From a virus: a stretch of DNA of 64,000 nt. This document shows, in pieces, positions 29,559 through 36,011 of the stretch. The number at the start of each line of letters is the position of its first letter. Within the stretch, counting starts at the first letter, position 1. The notes beneath the pieces are model-generated. The model saw only the letters and a program-made list of their open reading frames with translations. It had not been told where the DNA came from and did not search any database. The translations under genes were made by a program, and so were the position numbers. The stretch lies in the UHGV virus genome UHGV-0037280, one strand, 5' to 3'.

Positions 29559-29714
29559 GTGTCATTCAAGGCTAATTATGAATCGCTGGCATCGATCATG
29601 CCGCGTAATGAACAGGAAACAGATGCTGTAGTGGACCCTGTAATCGCTGAAATGAATGCTCGCCTGGAGGCTGAATTTGCAGCTGAGAATGAACATACCA
29701 CCCAGGGCGACTAG
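29559..29714 (+). CDS. small acidic protein (GTG start), hypothetical
   Basis: about 51 codons behind a GGGAGA RBS; not in the supplied ORF track; the overlapping minus-strand ORF 29562..29831 looks non-coding. Confidence 0.25.
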   Translation: MSFKANYESLASIMPRNEQETDAVVDPVIAEMNARLEAEFAAENEHTTQGD

Positions 29715-30318
29715 GACTGTTTTTTGTGTCGGTAGCGGTCCGTCACTCACTCGTGAGGACTGTGCTGCTATAGAAAAAACTGGCTGTTCAATCATCGCGG
29801 TTAACAATTCCTGGCAGATGTTCGATGACATTTATGCCTTATACGCCGGTGATTTGTCATGGTGGAAGCAATACGGATCCACCATACCGGGAGGGAGATT
29901 CCGCAAAGTGACAGCCAACCTGGCGGCGGCGAAATCATTTTCGTTGGAGTACAGGCGATATTGTGGACCGGCGGAAGGGGTAAATAGCGGCGCGCAGGCT
30001 ATCAGTCTGGCTGCTGAATCAGGGGCTGAAGTAGTGGTATTAGTCGGCTATGACTGTTCTCTGCAAAACGGCCTTCATTGGCATGGCGCGCACCCTCAAG
30101 CCCTACGGAATCCAACGCAGGTGTCTATTTCAAAATGGCAACAGCAGTTCCTGGATACCCGCAAAAAACACGCAGATTTACATATTTTGAATGCAAGTAG
30201 GAGCAGTGCAATTCAATGTTTCCCAAGAATAAATTTAGAGGCAGTGATCGCGTTATTATCGTCGGCAGTGGCCCAAGCGCCGCAAACTTTGTTGCGCCGC
30301 GCGGAGTGCCGATTATAG
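29689..30318 (+). CDS. MptE-like / DUF115 (Maf-type) protein
   Basis: VFCVGSGPSL ... IIAVNNS ... SGAQAISLA ... VVLVGYDCS motif series; start placed at the second ATG. Confidence 0.55.
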   Translation: MNIPPRATRTVFCVGSGPSLTREDCAAIEKTGCSIIAVNNSWQMFDDIYALYAGDLSWWKQYGSTIPGGRFRKVTANLAAAKSFSLEYRRYCGPAEGVNSGAQAISLAAESGAEVVVLVGYDCSLQNGLHWHGAHPQALRNPTQVSISKWQQQFLDTRKKHADLHILNASRSSAIQCFPRINLEAVIALLSSAVAQAPQTLLRRAECRL

Positions 30319-30842
30319 CGGTCAATGGGGCCATCGACTGGCTGAACCGCGCTTCTTATTTTTTCACACTTGATCCATCGCCAGACAATATGCGGCGCGT
30401 TGGTCGTGGCCGCCGTCGCCGTGGTGTTTGTTATTGCATGGCACTACCCGATGTTAAAGAACGTGAAGTCAGAGACGGCGTTCTGTGCTTCCGTCGTGTG
30501 GCTGAACGTGGCATGGAGCCAAAAAATACGAATTCTCCCGAGTGGTGGGCGTGGCGCTGGTCCGCACATTTCGGACTTTGCGAAGATGAGAATGAAATTG
30601 CCAGCGGCAATAGTGCATATGGCGCTCTGAACCTGGCTTTCCATATCGGATTCAAACATGTCGCCCTGGTGGGCGTTGACGCTACACAAGAACCACGCGT
30701 TCACTCCGGCGGCACGCCAAAAAATCTAAGTCACCTGCCTTTGTTATTCCAGTCTGCGCGTGAACGGATTGACGTTGTTTCATGCGGGAAAATGGGAGGT
30801 ATTCCGCAGATGACTCTTAAAGAATGGCTGAAGAATACATGA
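30216..30842 (+). CDS. MptE-like / DUF115 paralog
   Basis: [10 protein letters not shown] ... IIAVNGA ... [12 protein letters not shown] ... VALVGVD; overlaps the upstream paralog by about 100 nt in another frame. Confidence 0.55.
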
Positions 30843-31516
30843 TGGCACCCACAATTTATCACCGTATCGACGGTACCAAATACAGGAATGTCTGGGTTGT
30901 TGGTGATCTGCATGGTTGCTACACCAGACTGATGTCCGAACTCCATCGTGTGGATTTTGACCCGGCGCAGGATTTACTGGTATCGGTCGGCGACCTTATC
31001 GATCGCGGTACTGAAAATGTCGAATGTCTGGAACTATTGCAGATGCCCTGGTTCAGGGCAGTGATGGGGAACCATGAGCGGCTGATGATTGATGCGTTAA
31101 GTCCAGATGGCAACGTGAATAACTGGCTAATGAATGGCGGACAATGGTTCTTCATGCTGGACACTGATCAGGAAATATTAGCCTGGGCGCTGGTGGAGCT
31201 GGTAAAGCGTCTGCCCTATATCATTGAGTTGAACACGGGGCAAGAAACTATCGTTATAGCCCATGCCGACTATCCGGATAATGAATACCAATTCGGTAAG
31301 GAGGTGCCGCTTTTCAACGTTGTCTGGGCGCGCGAGCGTATCAGTGATTCGATGGATGATATTGGTGGCGAAATTTCGGGCGCAGATCGTTTTATCTTTG
31401 GTCACACTCCGGTGAAAAGCCCGAAGACATTCTGGAATCAGCAGTATATCGACACTGGTGCCGTATTTTGCGGAAACCTGACATTGATGAAAGTGAAAGG
31501 TGATGGTGCAGCATGA
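30824..31516 (+). CDS. pap: lambda-type Ser/Thr protein phosphatase (P1 Pap-like)
   Basis: calcineurin-like metallophosphatase motifs GDLHG, GDLIDRG, GNHE. Confidence 0.85.
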
Positions 31517-32214
31517 AGATTGCTTTAGTTTTTCGCTCTGGTGGTGACTATAACGCTTCCGATGTGCAGTGGCTGGTTAATCAACTGCCAAAAGGCTATG
31601 AAATTATTTGCCTGACAGACCTGAAGCGTTTACATGTACCTGGCGTCAAAGTTGTCCCATTGATCAACCAGTGGCAAAAGTGCCGTGGCTGGTGGGCGAA
31701 AATCGAGTTGTTCCGACCGGATATAACCGATGATCTGTTCTATCTGGATTTGGACACGGTTATTGCCGGTGATATACGCCCAATCCTAGAGCATCCACCA
31801 ACCAGCTTCACCATGCTTAGGGATTTTTACCATCCACAATATCGTGGCAGCGGTGCCCTGTGGATACCAAATAGTGTTAAAGCGCATATCTGGAGTTCAT
31901 TCTGGCAAGATCCGGAAGGTTGGATTTCTCGTTGTGTCACTACTGAGTGCTGGGGTGACCAGGGGTTCTTACGAAAGGTTATGGGCGATGATATACCAGC
32001 ATTTCAGGATCTGTATCCAGGATGGTTTGTAAGTTACAAGGCCGATGTTGTGGAACCTGGTTCAAAATATGCGAGCGCGCGTTACTCCAGGGGGAATGGG
32101 GCATTACCAAAAGACTGCCGAATAATCTTTTTCCACGGCAAACCGCGACCTCGCGAAGTGTCAGAGGATTGGCTTCCCCTTATCAGCTCATTTTTTGAGC
32201 GAGAATCAGAATAA
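31513..32214 (+). CDS. putative nucleotide-sugar transferase-like protein
   Basis: 233 aa; DLD motif (YLDLDTV) typical of GT-A fold; start overlaps pap stop. Confidence 0.4.
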
Positions 32215-32215
32215 T

Positions 32216-34356: not shown

Positions 34357-34372
34357 TTGCTCTAATAAATAT
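34356..34372 (+). promoter_or_regulatory. C1 operator
   Basis: ATTGCTCTAATAAATAT overlapping the HAD gene stop. Confidence 0.7.
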
Positions 34373-34550
34373 TGATTTTTAAAGCAGAGGAAGTGAAAAT
34401 AAAAACATGCCGCAAGGCGCGGCATGTATCCAATCAATCACAGGAGCTGAAAATATGAACACGGCATTCAAAATCATTATGGCCGCGATCTATTTCTGGC
34501 TGTTCTCTATCACTTTTGGCGGCATCGTCGCACATGGGTAAGGGGGATGC

Positions 34551-35129
34551 ATGAAAGGCGAAGTGAAAGAGCGCGGCATGATTTTTAACGATGAGATGGT
34601 CCGGGCAATTCTTGGCGGGAATAAAACACAGACTCGCAGGATTGTTGAAGAAAAATTCTATGGACGGGCAGTGGCCGCAGAGTTGCTTGCCAAGCATTGT
34701 CCATATGGTCAACCGGGCGATCGTATTTGGGTTCGCGAAACCTACCGGGTACATGGCAAAGCGACGGACGTCGCAACGCTGGTTTATCGCGCAAGCGTGC
34801 GTAACTCCTGGACAGAACAAACGCACCGGGTTCCGGTCGAGGTTTGTAATAAACCAGTATCAGAAAAGTGGACGCCATCAATTCACATGCCGCGCTGGGC
34901 TTCGCGTATTTTGCTGGAAATTACCGACGTGCGTGTGGAACGGCTGCATGACATGAGCGAGGCAGATGCTAAAGCGGAAGGCGCATCTCCGGCGACGTAC
35001 AAGATTACACCGCCGGAAGCTGTTTATCGCGTTGGTTTCGGTGATATCTGGCGCGGTATTTACGGGCAAGAGAACTGGCTATCTAACCCGTGGGTATGGG
35101 TAATCGAGTTTAAGCGCATTCAGGAATAA
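34551..35129 (+). CDS. ASCH/PUA-like domain protein
   Basis: MIFNDEMVRAILGGNKTQTRR resembles the ASCH N-terminal motif; start could be 34578. Confidence 0.45.
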   Translation: MKGEVKERGMIFNDEMVRAILGGNKTQTRRIVEEKFYGRAVAAELLAKHCPYGQPGDRIWVRETYRVHGKATDVATLVYRASVRNSWTEQTHRVPVEVCNKPVSEKWTPSIHMPRWASRILLEITDVRVERLHDMSEADAKAEGASPATYKITPPEAVYRVGFGDIWRGIYGQENWLSNPWVWVIEFKRIQE

Positions 35130-35138
35130 ACCGTGAGT

Positions 35139-36011
35139 ATGCATCAAGTTGTCAGCTTTTCAGGTGGACGAACATCGGCTTATCTCGTTCATCTGATGGA
35201 AGCAAAGCGAAAAGCTGGCGCTAGCGTCCATTTCATTTTTATGGATACCGGCTGTGAACATCCTCTGACGTATCGCTTTATTCGTGAGGTTGTGAAGTTC
35301 TGGAACGTACCGCTAACGGTGTTGCAGGTCGATATAAATCCAGAACTTGGGCAGCCAAATGGTTATACGGAATGGGAACCAAAGGATATTCAGACGCGAA
35401 TGCCGGTGCTTAAACCGTTTATGGACATGGTTAAAAAGTACGGTACGCCATACATCGGCGGCGCGTTCTGTACTGACAGGCTAAAACTCACCCCTTTCAC
35501 GAAATATTGCGATGACCATTTTGGGCGAGGGAATTACATTACATGGCTGGGTATTCGTGCGGACGAACACCGCAGGCTGAAACCGAAACCGGGCGTCCGG
35601 TATCTTGCAGAGCTGTCAGATTTTGATAAGTCGGATGTTATCCGGTGGTGGCGAAAACAACCTTTTGATTTGCAAATCCCGGAGCACCTAGGGAACTGTG
35701 TTTTTTGCATCAAAAAGTCAACGCAAAAGCTGGGGCTTGCATGTAAAGACGAACCTGGTCTGATGCGGGTTTTTAATGAACTGGTTACAGGTAAACACGT
35801 CCGGGATGGTCACCGAAAGACAAATAAAGACGTTATGTACCGTGGTCATCTGAGCCTTGACGGGATTGCCAGAATGTATGCCGACAGCGACTACAGAAAT
35901 TTGTATCAGGCGATGGTGCAAGCCAGGCGATTCGATACCGGCTCGTGTTCAGAGTCATGTGAAATCTGGGGTGATCAATTGGAGTTGAAATTCGAAGAGG
36001 TGGTGGCATGA
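35139..36011 (+). CDS. PAPS reductase-like (PP-loop ATP pyrophosphatase family) protein
   Basis: SFSGGRTS PP-loop motif at N-terminus; C-terminal Cys pairs. Confidence 0.75.
   Translation: MHQVVSFSGGRTSAYLVHLMEAKRKAGASVHFIFMDTGCEHPLTYRFIREVVKFWNVPLTVLQVDINPELGQPNGYTEWEPKDIQTRMPVLKPFMDMVKKYGTPYIGGAFCTDRLKLTPFTKYCDDHFGRGNYITWLGIRADEHRRLKPKPGVRYLAELSDFDKSDVIRWWRKQPFDLQIPEHLGNCVFCIKKSTQKLGLACKDEPGLMRVFNELVTGKHVRDGHRKTNKDVMYRGHLSLDGIARMYADSDYRNLYQAMVQARRFDTGSCSESCEIWGDQLELKFEEVVA

What the first reader, a model, noticed from the sequence alone, without database searches (positions are those of the whole stretch)
29559..36011. C1-operator-controlled operons encoding a set of small-molecule or nucleic-acid modifying enzyme-like proteins
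Between the baseplate cluster and the Ea22-like paralogs lie two tandem MptE-like/DUF115 paralogs, a Ser/Thr phosphatase, a DLD-motif transferase-like protein, a HAD phosphatase-like protein (DxDGT), an ASCH/PUA-like protein and a PAPS-reductase-like PP-loop protein, with C1 operators at 28592, 32216-32281 and 34356. These are probably the poorly characterised pmg-type genes of P1-like phages. The combination resembles toolkits used for DNA or protein modification and could be an undescribed modification or anti-defence pathway.
Basis: partly seen in the sequence, partly recalled or inferred. Interest (0 to 1): 0.45.

Follow-up and report, generated by a model that had tools for sequence, protein, structure and literature searches.

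The report
Phage P1 accessory genes with sugar-transferase cassette
This stretch is the already-catalogued, dispensable accessory-gene block of a phage P1/P7-like plasmid-prophage; it is not one pathway but a mosaic, whose only widely conserved unit is a three-enzyme sugar-transferase cassette of untested function.

Summary
Window 29559-36011 is 98-99% identical to P1/P7 and carries pmgN-pmgO-pmgP-ppp-pmgQ, pmgR-pmgS and pap. A variable tail holds an Upf86.8/PmgT-N-like gene and an 80%-identical ortholog of lambda ninC. The C1 operators lie at the annotated P1 positions.

- PmgO has a Maf/MptE/GT42-like fold.
- PmgQ has a GT8 fold with the DxD, DQ and H..G..P motifs.
- Ppp is 65% identical to lambda NinI.
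- Pap is a HAD PNKP-type phosphatase.
- NinC is an SspD/DndC-like PP-loop protein.
- Only the ASCH call stays weak.

The "one toolkit" reading is not supported. Only pmgO-pmgP-pmgQ travel together outside P1-like phages. They recur in a lambdoid prophage, HK97-like siphophages, a podophage-like contig and jumbo phage XacN1. They are sometimes fused, often sit just after the capsid gene, and often lie beside sugar methyltransferases.

Published single deletions of these P1 genes leave plating and type I anti-restriction normal; only pmgR is essential.

My best reading is a glycan-building cassette. I infer, without proof, that it glycosylates virion proteins. LPS-core remodelling is the main rival. 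NinC is a plausible anti-defence candidate. These are known genes of unknown function, so interest is modest.

The parts
28592..28608 (-). C1 operator O26/Op82, in the divergent control region of gene 26 and pmgL. It overlaps the P1-annotated sigma-70 and late (LPpmgL) promoters.
   Evidence: 2 mismatches to the C1 consensus. The region differs from P1 at one base outside the operator. P1 annotation.
29499..29515 (-). Degenerate C1 operator Op83/Oppp (P7: Op(hdm)), just upstream of pmgN. It carries a G->A change relative to P1 and P7.
   Evidence: Annotated in P1 and P7. Sequence, alignment. 5 mismatches to consensus here against 4 in P1 (my count).
29559..29714 (+). pmgN (P7 hdmA), 51 aa, function unknown.
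   Evidence: ORF. P1 annotation. phrog_2350, unknown function. Deletion viable.
29656..30318 (+). pmgO (hdmB): Maf/MptE/GT42-fold enzyme, predicted CMP-ulosonic-acid-type glycosyltransferase. The likely true start is ATG 29689.
30216..30842 (+). pmgP (hdmC): second, remotely related MptE-like-fold enzyme. It is found fused to a PmgO-like domain in other phages.
   Evidence: Pfam MptE-like 3.2e-4, below cut-off. phrog_2111, with a cross-hit to phrog_4603. Fusion protein P0051. BLASTP against WaaZ E 1e-4 over the N-terminal motif.
30824..31516 (+). ppp: lambda NinI-type Mn-dependent Ser/Thr protein phosphatase. It is inserted inside the transferase cassette only in the P1 lineage.
   Evidence: Pfam Metallophos 1.1e-15. 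65% identical to lambda Nin221. Absent between pmgP and pmgQ in L055, L086, L003 and XacN1.
31513..32214 (+). pmgQ (hdmD): GT8-like GT-A retaining glycosyltransferase with DxD, DQ and H..G..P motifs.
32216..32281 (.). Paired C1 operators OpmgRa (32216-32232, +) and OpmgRb (32265-32281, -), flanking promoter PpmgR.
   Evidence: P1 and P7 annotation.
32296..32514 (+). [quoted passage not shown] Not an enzyme.
   Evidence: ORF. Deletion yields unjoined heads and tails and is complemented in trans (PMC9024508).
32516..33778 (+). pmgS (shtB), 420 aa: coiled-coil protein, dispensable, function unknown.
   Evidence: phrog_1660. Only coiled-coil-type weak hits: SMC, LmuB, TPR. Deletion normal.
33798..33826 (+). 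Terminator-like hairpin (11-bp stem followed by a T-run) between pmgS and pap.
33850..34356 (+). pap: stand-alone HAD phosphatase of the polynucleotide-kinase 3'-phosphatase type (DIDGT).
   Evidence: Pfam HAD_PNKP 6.1e-12, 46.3 bits against a 27.6 cut-off. phrog_415. Deletion normal.
34356..34372 (+). C1 operator OpmgT/Op88, heading the variable early region.
   Evidence: 1 mismatch. P1 and P7 annotation.
34551..35129 (+). Upf86.8/PmgT-N-like protein, possibly ASCH/PUA-like. It belongs to a very large phage protein family.
   Evidence: 44% identical to the N-terminal 232 residues of P1 PmgT. Pfam ASCH E 0.039. 6 of 42 relatives hit ASCH, best E 0.0011. Only the GxKTxTxR motif aligns with YqfB. 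43,394 clusters at E<=1e-3.
35133..36011 (+). Ortholog of lambda ninC (Nin290): SspD/DndC-like PP-loop ATP-pyrophosphatase-type protein. It is not a sulfate-assimilation PAPS reductase.
   Evidence: 80% identical to lambda Nin290. Pfam PAPS_reduct 4.8e-9, above cut-off, N-terminal part only. PADLOC SspD 1.4e-13. Found in 61 phage records (mostly Stx phages and lambda) and 75 plasmids. No ECGLH motif in the translation.

Best explanation
The span is the accessory block of a P1/P7-type phage-plasmid. It is a mosaic of independently inherited units that share only control by the C1 repressor, so they are off in the lysogen and on after induction or infection.

(1) pmgO-pmgP-pmgQ is a conserved glycan-building cassette.
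- PmgQ is a GT8-type retaining hexosyltransferase, so it should use a UDP-sugar with a divalent metal held by the DxD motif and a histidine.
- PmgO and PmgP are two Maf/GT42/WaaZ-like enzymes. That class uses CMP-activated ulosonic acids. In E. coli K-12 the only such donor is CMP-Kdo (my own knowledge).
- Together they would assemble a short glycan in the cytoplasm of the infected cell.
- The acceptor is inferred, not shown. I favour a phage virion protein.

(2) ppp is a lambda NinI-type protein phosphatase that was inserted into this cassette in the P1 lineage.

(3) pmgR is an essential head-tail joining factor. pmgS is a dispensable coiled-coil protein.

(4) pap is a stand-alone PNKP-type 3'-phosphatase.

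(5) Downstream of Op88 lies a hypervariable early region. Here it carries a PmgT-N/Upf86.8-like protein and lambda ninC, an SspD/DndC-like PP-loop protein and the best anti-defence candidate in the span.
For: Identity and regulation are shown.

Enzyme class:
- PmgQ profile hit to Gat1 at E 2.6e-6.
- The DxD, DQ and H..G..P motifs align with WaaJ and are invariant across 32 homologs.
- The invariant D and H residues of the PmgO family are kept in PmgP.

Cassette behaviour:
- A PmgO-like gene, and often a PmgP-like one, lies directly upstream of a PmgQ-like gene in 15 of the 29 distant loci examined.
- The same O-P-Q order occurs in a Citrobacter rodentium lambdoid prophage and in virulent jumbo phage XacN1.
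- Natural fusions exist: O+P in P0051, and Q+O/P at L073 5989-7254. The best BFVD matches of the PmgQ model are named MptE-like.

Glycan context: the neighbours include FkbM, TylF and class-I methyltransferases, a TupA ATP-grasp enzyme and a PIG-L deacetylase.

Virion link:
- In L057, L066, L075, L077 and L080 the cassette sits directly after the major capsid gene.
- In L057, L064 and L080 a head-tail adaptor, connector or neck gene follows it.
- In phiNP it lies in the late operon between Rz and terminase.
- The cassette also occurs in virulent phages, which argues against lysogenic conversion.

Mosaic nature: Ppp, Pap, PmgS, the ASCH-like protein and NinC never accompany the cassette outside P1-likes. 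NinC is 80% and Ppp 65% identical to their lambda nin counterparts.

Dispensability is shown.
Against: - No glycan has been reported on P1 virions. The 2026 cryo-EM paper never mentions glycans (absence of evidence only), and the 2022 virion proteome text I read reports none.
- In P1 itself the cassette is flanked by tail and baseplate genes, not the capsid gene. It is read from an early C1-controlled promoter.
- Insertion between structural genes is also typical of morons that act on the host.
- A solo PmgQ-like gene sits next to int/att and the tail-fibre genes in lambdoid phage Chlobot, a classic conversion-gene position.
- All identifiable hosts are Gram-negative. Both enzyme families also have LPS/LOS-core members (WaaJ, LgtC, WaaZ, Cst), which fits an LPS acceptor equally well.
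- Neither PmgO, PmgP nor PmgQ reaches a Pfam gathering score.
- PmgP's fold was not modelled.
Confidence: 0.6

Rival explanations
1. PmgO/P/Q remodel the host LPS core, which is the P1 receptor. PmgQ would act like the GT8 core glucosyl/galactosyltransferases WaaJ/WaaO. PmgO/PmgP would act like the Kdo-III transferase WaaZ. Newly made LPS in infected cells would then no longer bind P1, limiting superinfection or the loss of progeny on debris.
For: - GT8 fold, with motifs that align with WaaJ.
- PmgP against WaaZ gives BLASTP E 1e-4. The PmgO profile against WaaZ gives E 0.006. The natural O+P fusion carries a faint precomputed Pfam WaaZ_KDO_III hit.
- All identifiable hosts are Gram-negative.
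- A solo PmgQ-like gene sits in a conversion-type position beside int and the tail fibres in phage Chlobot.
- Early, C1-controlled expression in P1.
Against: - The similarities to WaaZ and WaaJ are at superfamily level only (hhalign probabilities 6% and 37%).
- The cassette is repressed in lysogens, so it cannot act as a classical conversion function.
- It occurs in virulent jumbo and T4-like phages.
- It lies inside head-gene modules, with methyltransferases typical of protein- or polysaccharide-linked glycans.
- LPS already in the outer membrane would not be changed by cytoplasmic enzymes within one latent period (inference).
Confidence: 0.25
2. One reading: all the enzyme-like proteins cooperate in one undescribed DNA- or protein-modification or anti-defence pathway. 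That set comprises two MptE-like proteins, a phosphatase, a DxD transferase, a HAD phosphatase, an ASCH protein and a PP-loop protein.
For: - The genes are adjacent, and C1 control is shared.
- Several of the folds recur in nucleic-acid modification systems.
- NinC resembles SspD, DndC and BrxP.
Against: - The genes lie in separate promoter/operator units, and a terminator-like site precedes pap.
- There is no co-occurrence beyond O-P-Q.
- The ASCH-like gene and ninC are not linked in Stx phage phi367.
- P1 and P7 carry other genes in place of ninC.
- Single deletions have no plating or type I restriction phenotype.
- P1 and lambdoid DNA lack the hydroxymethyl bases that known DNA glycosyltransferases need (my own knowledge).
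Confidence: 0.06
3. PmgO and PmgP are not glycosyltransferases. They would be small-molecule pyrophosphokinases of the MptE / thiamine-pyrophosphokinase type, making or depleting a metabolite during infection.
Against: - The best fold match is the Maf glycosyltransferase, with more residues aligned (164 against 129).
- The genes are always linked, or fused, to a GT8 enzyme and lie with sugar-modifying enzymes.
Confidence: 0.06
4. The genes are virion morphogenesis genes, as their P1 names (pmg) and P7 names (hdm, head morphogenesis; sht, sheath) imply.
For: The names come from the positions of old amber mutations. pmgR really is required for head-tail joining.
Against: - All the others are dispensable for plaque formation.
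- None of them is among the virion proteins named in the passages of the proteome paper and the cryo-EM paper that I read.
- Their folds are enzymatic.
Confidence: 0.03

Closest known systems
Bacteriophage P1 pmgN-pmgQ/ppp, pmgR-pmgS and pap region, and its P7 equivalent hdmA-D, shtA/B, pap, upf86.8
   Same: 98-99% nucleotide identity, identical gene order, and C1 operators at homologous positions.
   Different: After Op88 this element carries an Upf86.8-like gene followed by lambda-type ninC and Ea22-like genes, where P1 has pmgT-U-V. Op83 has one extra mismatch.
Virion glycosylation cassettes of mycobacteriophages (Che8, Corndog, Myrna; Freeman et al. 2023, my own knowledge; cluster F1 note in PMC11256854) and of chloroviruses (PBCV-1 A064R)
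   Different: The enzyme make-up differs (GT8-like plus two Maf/MptE-like). The hosts are Gram-negative. No glycan has been shown on P1 or on any relative. In P1 the cassette is not next to the capsid gene.
LPS/LOS core glycosyltransferases: GT8 (WaaJ/WaaO, LgtC), WaaZ, and GT42 (Cst-I/II)
   Same: Same folds and catalytic motifs. The pairing of a GT8 enzyme with a CMP-ulosonic-acid transferase resembles LOS outer-core synthesis.
   Different: Sequence similarity is only at superfamily level. The phage proteins are much shorter (about 200-233 aa). They are phage-borne and repressed in the lysogen.
Maf flagellin nonulosonic-acid glycosyltransferases (5mu5)
   Different: PmgO is only the roughly 200-aa catalytic core, against 632 aa for Maf. 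E. coli K-12 makes no pseudaminic or legionaminic acid (my own knowledge).
Lambda nin-region genes ninC (Nin290) and ninI (Nin221, lambda protein phosphatase)
   Same: 80% and 65% amino-acid identity. Both are dispensable in lambda.
   Different: Here they lie in a P1-type genome under C1 operators rather than in the lambda PR operon, and they are separated by about 3.6 kb.
SspD/DndC/BrxP PP-loop components of DNA phosphorothioation and BREX type 4; phage PAPS reductase that evades Dnd (Piel et al. 2022, as cited in PMC13551039)
   Same: The PP-loop N-terminal domain matches SspD at 1.4e-13, and matches DndC and BrxP weakly. It sits in a variable early region, as anti-defence genes typically do.
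   Different: There are no SspA/B/C or DndA/D/E partners in the span. Homology to the Vibrio phage protein was not tested. The CysH catalytic ECGLH motif is absent (read from the translation).

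Membership tests
Punavirus P1/P7 pmg-ppp-pap block | Near-identical sequence and synteny with the annotated P1 and P7 genes | tested here: met
   98.5-99.0% identity over 5.0-5.4 kb, same gene order.
Punavirus P1/P7 pmg-ppp-pap block | C1 operators at the homologous promoter positions | tested here: met
   28592, 32216, 32265 and 34356 match the consensus with 3 or fewer mismatches, 15 hits against 0.35 expected. Op83 is present but degenerate.
GT8 retaining glycosyltransferases (PmgQ) | GT-A fold closest to solved GT8 structures | tested here: met
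GT8 retaining glycosyltransferases (PmgQ) | DxD metal/nucleotide motif, DQ(D) motif and C-terminal H..G..KPW-type motif | tested here: met
   YLDLDT, GDQG and FHGKPRP align with WaaJ's yldad, pdqd and hytgatkpw. D79, D81, D149 and H208 are invariant in 32 homologs.
GT8 retaining glycosyltransferases (PmgQ) | Score above the Pfam family threshold | tested here: not met
   No Pfam family at E<=0.1. Only profile-level hits to GT8 chains, at E 2.6e-6 and 0.0036.
GT8 retaining glycosyltransferases (PmgQ) | UDP-sugar transfer activity | not testable with these tools
   Needs an enzyme assay.
MptE-like / DUF115 (PF01973), which includes Maf and archaeal HPPK (PmgO, PmgP) | Pfam gathering score | tested here: not met
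   23.4 and 21.0 bits against a 34.6 cut-off. Several PmgO homologs carry a precomputed PF01973 hit.
MptE-like / DUF115 (PF01973), which includes Maf and archaeal HPPK (PmgO, PmgP) | Fold | tested here: met
GT42 sialyltransferase (the PHROG name given to PmgO) | Use of CMP-Neu5Ac and a sialylated product | not testable with these tools
   Only N-terminal GxGPS and mid-region similarity to Cst-II, E 0.2-0.7. K-12 lacks CMP-Neu5Ac (my own knowledge), so the name should not be taken literally.
WaaZ Kdo-III transferase family (PF27901) | Significant full-length similarity to WaaZ | tested here: inconclusive
   PmgP against WaaZ: E 1e-4 over 36 residues. PmgO profile against WaaZ: E 0.006, probability 6%. 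A faint precomputed hit on fusion protein P0051.
Lambda-PP / NinI PPP-family Ser/Thr phosphatase (Ppp) | Metallophosphoesterase motifs GDxHG, GDxxDRG and GNHE, with close similarity to lambda NinI | tested here: met
   Motifs are present in the translation. Pfam Metallophos 1.1e-15. 65% identity to Nin221.
HAD PNKP-type phosphatase (Pap) | Pfam HAD_PNKP above threshold and the DxDGT nucleophile motif | tested here: met
   46.3 bits against a 27.6 cut-off. DIDGT at residues 20-24.
ASCH / PUA-like (34551-35129) | Pfam ASCH above threshold, or the ASCH fold | tested here: inconclusive
   15.1 bits against a 21.2 cut-off. 6 of 42 relatives hit, best E 0.0011. Only the N-terminal GxKTxTxR motif aligns with YqfB. 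No PDB sequence hit.
PAPS reductase / PP-loop superfamily (35133-36011) | PP-loop SGGxxS motif and a Pfam PAPS_reduct hit | tested here: met
   SFSGGRTS. 36.9 bits against a 22.5 cut-off, although only profile positions 3-66 of 175 are covered.
Assimilatory PAPS reductase CysH proper | C-terminal catalytic ECGLH cysteine motif | tested here: not met
   No ECG[LI]H in the 292-aa translation. NCBIfam PRK02090 scores 21.7 bits against a 154 cut-off. It should therefore not be filed as a sulfate-assimilation enzyme.
Lambda NinC | Full-length high identity to lambda Nin290 | tested here: met
   80% identity over 285 residues.
Phage virion glycosylation system | Glycan demonstrated on virion proteins and dependent on the phage transferases | not testable with these tools
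   Only the genomic context in relatives supports it. Nothing has been reported for P1.

The most novel reading that the evidence does not exclude
P1 and a wide range of phages of Gram-negative bacteria (lambdoid, HK97-like, jumbo) would use a conserved cassette to decorate their own virion proteins with a short glycan, possibly containing Kdo. The cassette pairs a GT8-like enzyme with Maf/WaaZ-like enzymes. This would be the first virion-glycosylation system in coliphages. It would sit in one of the most-studied phages and would have been missed because it is dispensable in laboratory plating.
Probability: 0.25. Interest if true: 0.65.

Novelty: already known. Interest (0 to 1): 0.3.

Why it matters
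The genes themselves are catalogued, so the window adds no new element. What this analysis adds is a sharper, testable picture. The misnamed "morphogenetic" genes pmgO, pmgP and pmgQ of P1 form a glycosyltransferase cassette. That cassette is conserved, and sometimes fused, across unrelated phages of Gram-negative hosts, often right beside capsid genes.

If the cassette glycosylates virions, that would bear on immune recognition and mucus binding of therapeutic and gut phages. If it remodels LPS, it would be a new receptor-masking strategy.

Recognising the last ORF as lambda ninC, with SspD-like features, gives a handle on a decades-old unknown gene of lambda. It suggests testing that gene against phosphorothioation-based defences.

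Tried and rejected
- Treating the block as one pathway. Rejected on co-occurrence and operon structure.
- Defence-system membership. PADLOC gave nothing except SspD/DndC/BrxP-type hits for NinC and coiled-coil noise (LmuB) for PmgS.
- A specific WaaZ or WaaJ relationship. Only superfamily-level scores.
- Confirming ASCH. The word-indexed homolog search returned only near-identical proteins. The exhaustive search gave a diverse alignment, but its profile hit no PDB sequence and only 6 of 42 members touched Pfam ASCH. hhalign against YqfB aligned 24 residues.
- Linkage between the ASCH-like gene and ninC. Not seen in Stx phage phi367.
- A Foldseek search against AFDB50, to look for WaaZ-like neighbours of PmgO. 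That library was unavailable.
- Literature on DUF115/MptE-like proteins in phages, or on pmgO/P/Q function. Nothing beyond gene lists, essentiality screens and an RNA-seq mention.
- Looking for Gram-positive hosts, which would exclude the LPS rival. All identifiable relatives infect Gram-negative bacteria, so this did not discriminate.
- PmgS. No informative domain.

Full report
**What is there.** Window 29559-36011 holds ten plus-strand ORFs.
- Megablast shows 98.9% identity to phage P7 over query positions 1-5402 and 98.5% to P1 over 1-5048.
- The annotated records give the gene names:
  - pmgN/hdmA at 29559-29714
  - pmgO/hdmB at 29656-30318
  - pmgP/hdmC at 30216-30842
  - ppp at 30824-31516
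  - pmgQ/hdmD at 31513-32214
  - pmgR/shtA at 32296-32514
  - pmgS/shtB at 32516-33778
  - pap at 33850-34356
- The next ORF, 34551-35129, corresponds to P7 upf86.8. It is 44% identical to the N-terminal 232 residues of P1 PmgT.
- The last ORF, 35133-36011, is absent from P1 and P7. It matches Stx phages at 90-91% nucleotide identity and lambda ninC at 75-78%. Its protein is 80% identical to lambda Nin290.
- The closest overall relatives of the right-hand part are non-mobilizable IncY-type E. coli plasmids, that is, P1-like phage-plasmids.

**Regulation.**
- The C1 operator consensus hits the window 15 times against 0.35 expected. The hits include 28592(-), 32216(+), 32265(-) and 34356(+). These are P1's O26/Op82, OpmgRa/b and OpmgT/Op88.
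- A further annotated operator, Op83/Oppp, lies at 29499-29515 just before pmgN. It is degenerate in P1 and carries one more mismatch here.
- The O26 / late-promoter LPpmgL region differs from P1 at one base, outside the operator.
- A strong terminator-like hairpin at 33798-33826 separates pmgS from pap.
- P1's annotation therefore gives separate C1-controlled promoter/operator units:
  - pmgL-pmgM
  - pmgN-pmgQ
  - pmgR-pmgS, with pap lying beyond the hairpin without an annotated promoter of its own
  - the region after Op88

**Are the family guesses right?**
- *Ppp.* It is a calcineurin-like metallophosphatase (Pfam 1.1e-15) and is 65% identical to lambda NinI, the lambda phosphatase.
- *Pap.* It matches the PNKP-type HAD phosphatase domain above threshold.
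- *PmgQ.*
  - It has no Pfam hit.
  - A 32-sequence alignment shows invariant D79, D81, D149 and H208.
  - Its profile hits the GT8-like Gat1 at E 2.6e-6.
  - The DxD, DQ and H..G..P motifs align with E. coli WaaJ.
- *PmgO and PmgP.*
  - Both hit Pfam MptE-like only below threshold.
  - The two proteins are only remotely alike. They share the GSGPS..AVN motif and the invariant D and H residues.
- *ASCH.* This assignment stays weak.
- *The last ORF.*
  - It has the PP-loop motif and an above-threshold PAPS_reduct hit that covers only the N-terminal third.
  - Its best defence-database match is SspD at 1.4e-13, with DndC and BrxP weaker.
  - It lacks the CysH ECGLH motif, so it is not a sulfate-assimilation enzyme.

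**Is it one toolkit?** No.
- I took the distant PmgQ homologs found in IMG/VR and searched their neighbourhoods with all the window proteins. A PmgO-like gene, and often a PmgP-like one, lies immediately upstream in 15 of the 29 distant loci examined. Ppp, Pap, PmgS, the ASCH-like protein and NinC never appear.
- A more distant P1-like element (L055) has pmgM-pmgO-pmgP-pmgQ-pmgR without ppp. The phosphatase is therefore an insertion into the cassette.
- The same O-P-Q order occurs in two further phages:
  - a Citrobacter rodentium lambdoid prophage, between the lysis gene Rz and terminase
  - the virulent 385-kb Xanthomonas phage XacN1
- Natural fusions link the domains:
  - P0051 fuses O and P.
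  - L073 5989-7254 fuses Q with O/P.
  - The best BFVD structural matches of PmgQ are 441-700-aa phage proteins named MptE-like.
- The ASCH-like gene and ninC are not linked in Stx phage phi367, where ninC lies in the early-left accessory region.

**What the cassette probably does.** The recurrent neighbours are sugar-tailoring enzymes:
- FkbM, TylF and class-I methyltransferases, a TupA-like ATP-grasp enzyme and a PIG-L deacetylase.
- A recurring protein of unknown function, phrog_2518.

In HK97-like contigs the cassette sits inside the structural module:

| Locus | Gene order |
|---|---|
| L057 | protease, major head, PmgO, PmgQ, adaptor, head closure |
| L064 | portal, adaptor, head closure, PmgO, methyltransferase, PmgQ, neck |
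| L080 | capsid, PmgO, methyltransferase, ATP-grasp, GT, PmgQ, connector |
| L077 | major head, (MptE-like), methyltransferase, PmgQ, tail protein |
| L066, L075 | capsid gene just upstream of the cassette |

- This placement, together with the cassette's presence in virulent phages, points to a glycan assembled late in the infected cytoplasm. I favour a virion protein as acceptor, by analogy with mycobacteriophage and chlorovirus virion glycosylation.
- That step is inference. No glycan has been reported on P1.
- In P1 the cassette is early (C1-controlled) and lies next to tail genes.
- The main rival is LPS-core remodelling. Four observations support it:
  - the superfamily ties to WaaJ and WaaZ
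  - the exclusively Gram-negative host range
  - a solo PmgQ-like gene beside int/att in a lambdoid phage
  - the fact that P1 adsorbs to the LPS core (my own knowledge)

**What is already known experimentally.**
- Gonzales et al. 2022 made in-frame deletions of pmgN, pmgO, pmgP, pmgQ, pmgS, pmgT, pmgU, ppp and pap, among 29 single-gene knockouts.
  - 24 of the 29 knockouts plaque normally. They show normal restriction on EcoA, EcoB and EcoK hosts.
  - Only pmgR in this block is essential; its deletion leaves unjoined heads and tails.
- A CRISPRi screen agrees, apart from pmgN and pmgR. It scored pmgN as essential and missed pmgR.
- Lambda ninC and ninI are likewise dispensable.
- A phage PAPS-reductase-like protein has been reported to help a Vibrio phage evade Dnd (Piel 2022, as cited in PMC13551039).
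- I found no paper addressing the biochemical function of PmgO, PmgP or PmgQ.

The genes are poorly characterised, they encode enzymes, and roles in protein modification and anti-defence are plausible.
- It is wrong in treating them as one pathway.
- DNA modification by the transferases is unlikely.
- The useful residue is a specific, cheap-to-test hypothesis for the O-P-Q cassette, and another for NinC.

Noticed in passing
window 29499-29515 (minus strand): Operator Op83/Oppp has a G->A substitution relative to both P1 and P7 (AGTACAT against AGTGCAT). That takes it to 5 mismatches from the C1 consensus, so the pmgN-pmgQ operon may be less tightly repressed in this element.
   Followed up: partly
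window 33798-33826 (+) and 34405-34427 (-): There is a strong terminator-like hairpin between pmgS and pap. A second one reads on the minus strand between operator Op88 and the ASCH-like gene, although no convincing minus-strand gene lies upstream of it.
   Followed up: no
window 29656-29689: The annotated pmgO start (ATG 29656) is probably too far upstream. Homologs are 180-200 aa and begin to align near the internal ATG at 29689.
   Followed up: partly
window 28666-28911 and 28914-29492: In the neighbouring pmgL-pmgM unit, PmgL is a DksA/TraR-like zinc-finger protein. PmgM carries a C-terminal domain matching a PHROG named Holliday junction resolvase/endonuclease. Neither looks morphogenetic.
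   Followed up: partly
L003 8001-9131; L073 5989-7254; L093 5338-6654: Natural fusion proteins join the cassette's domains in unrelated phages: PmgO-like with PmgP-like, PmgQ-like with PmgO/P-like, and an unknown 220-aa domain with PmgQ-like.
   Followed up: yes
L073 5012-5992; L092 4033-5001: A protein of about 320 aa in phrog_2518 (unknown function) recurs next to the PmgO/PmgQ genes in two unrelated phages. It may be a fourth component of the glycan cassette.
   Followed up: no
window 34551-35129: The Upf86.8/PmgT-N-like protein belongs to an enormous family: 43,394 clusters at 50% identity with E<=1e-3. It has no solved relative detectable by sequence and no assigned function.
   Followed up: partly
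window 34356-38356: The region after Op88 is a swap hot-spot among P1-like elements. P1 has pmgT-U-V there and P7 has upf86.8-upf90.8. This element has lambdoid ninC followed by three Ea22-like ORFs (36008-36712, 36996-37664, 37661-38356).
   Followed up: partly
L091 6001-6720 (Escherichia phage Chlobot): A solo PmgQ-like GT8 gene lies between integrase/att and the tail-fibre genes of a lambdoid phage, in its own orientation. That position is typical of lysogenic-conversion genes.
   Followed up: no
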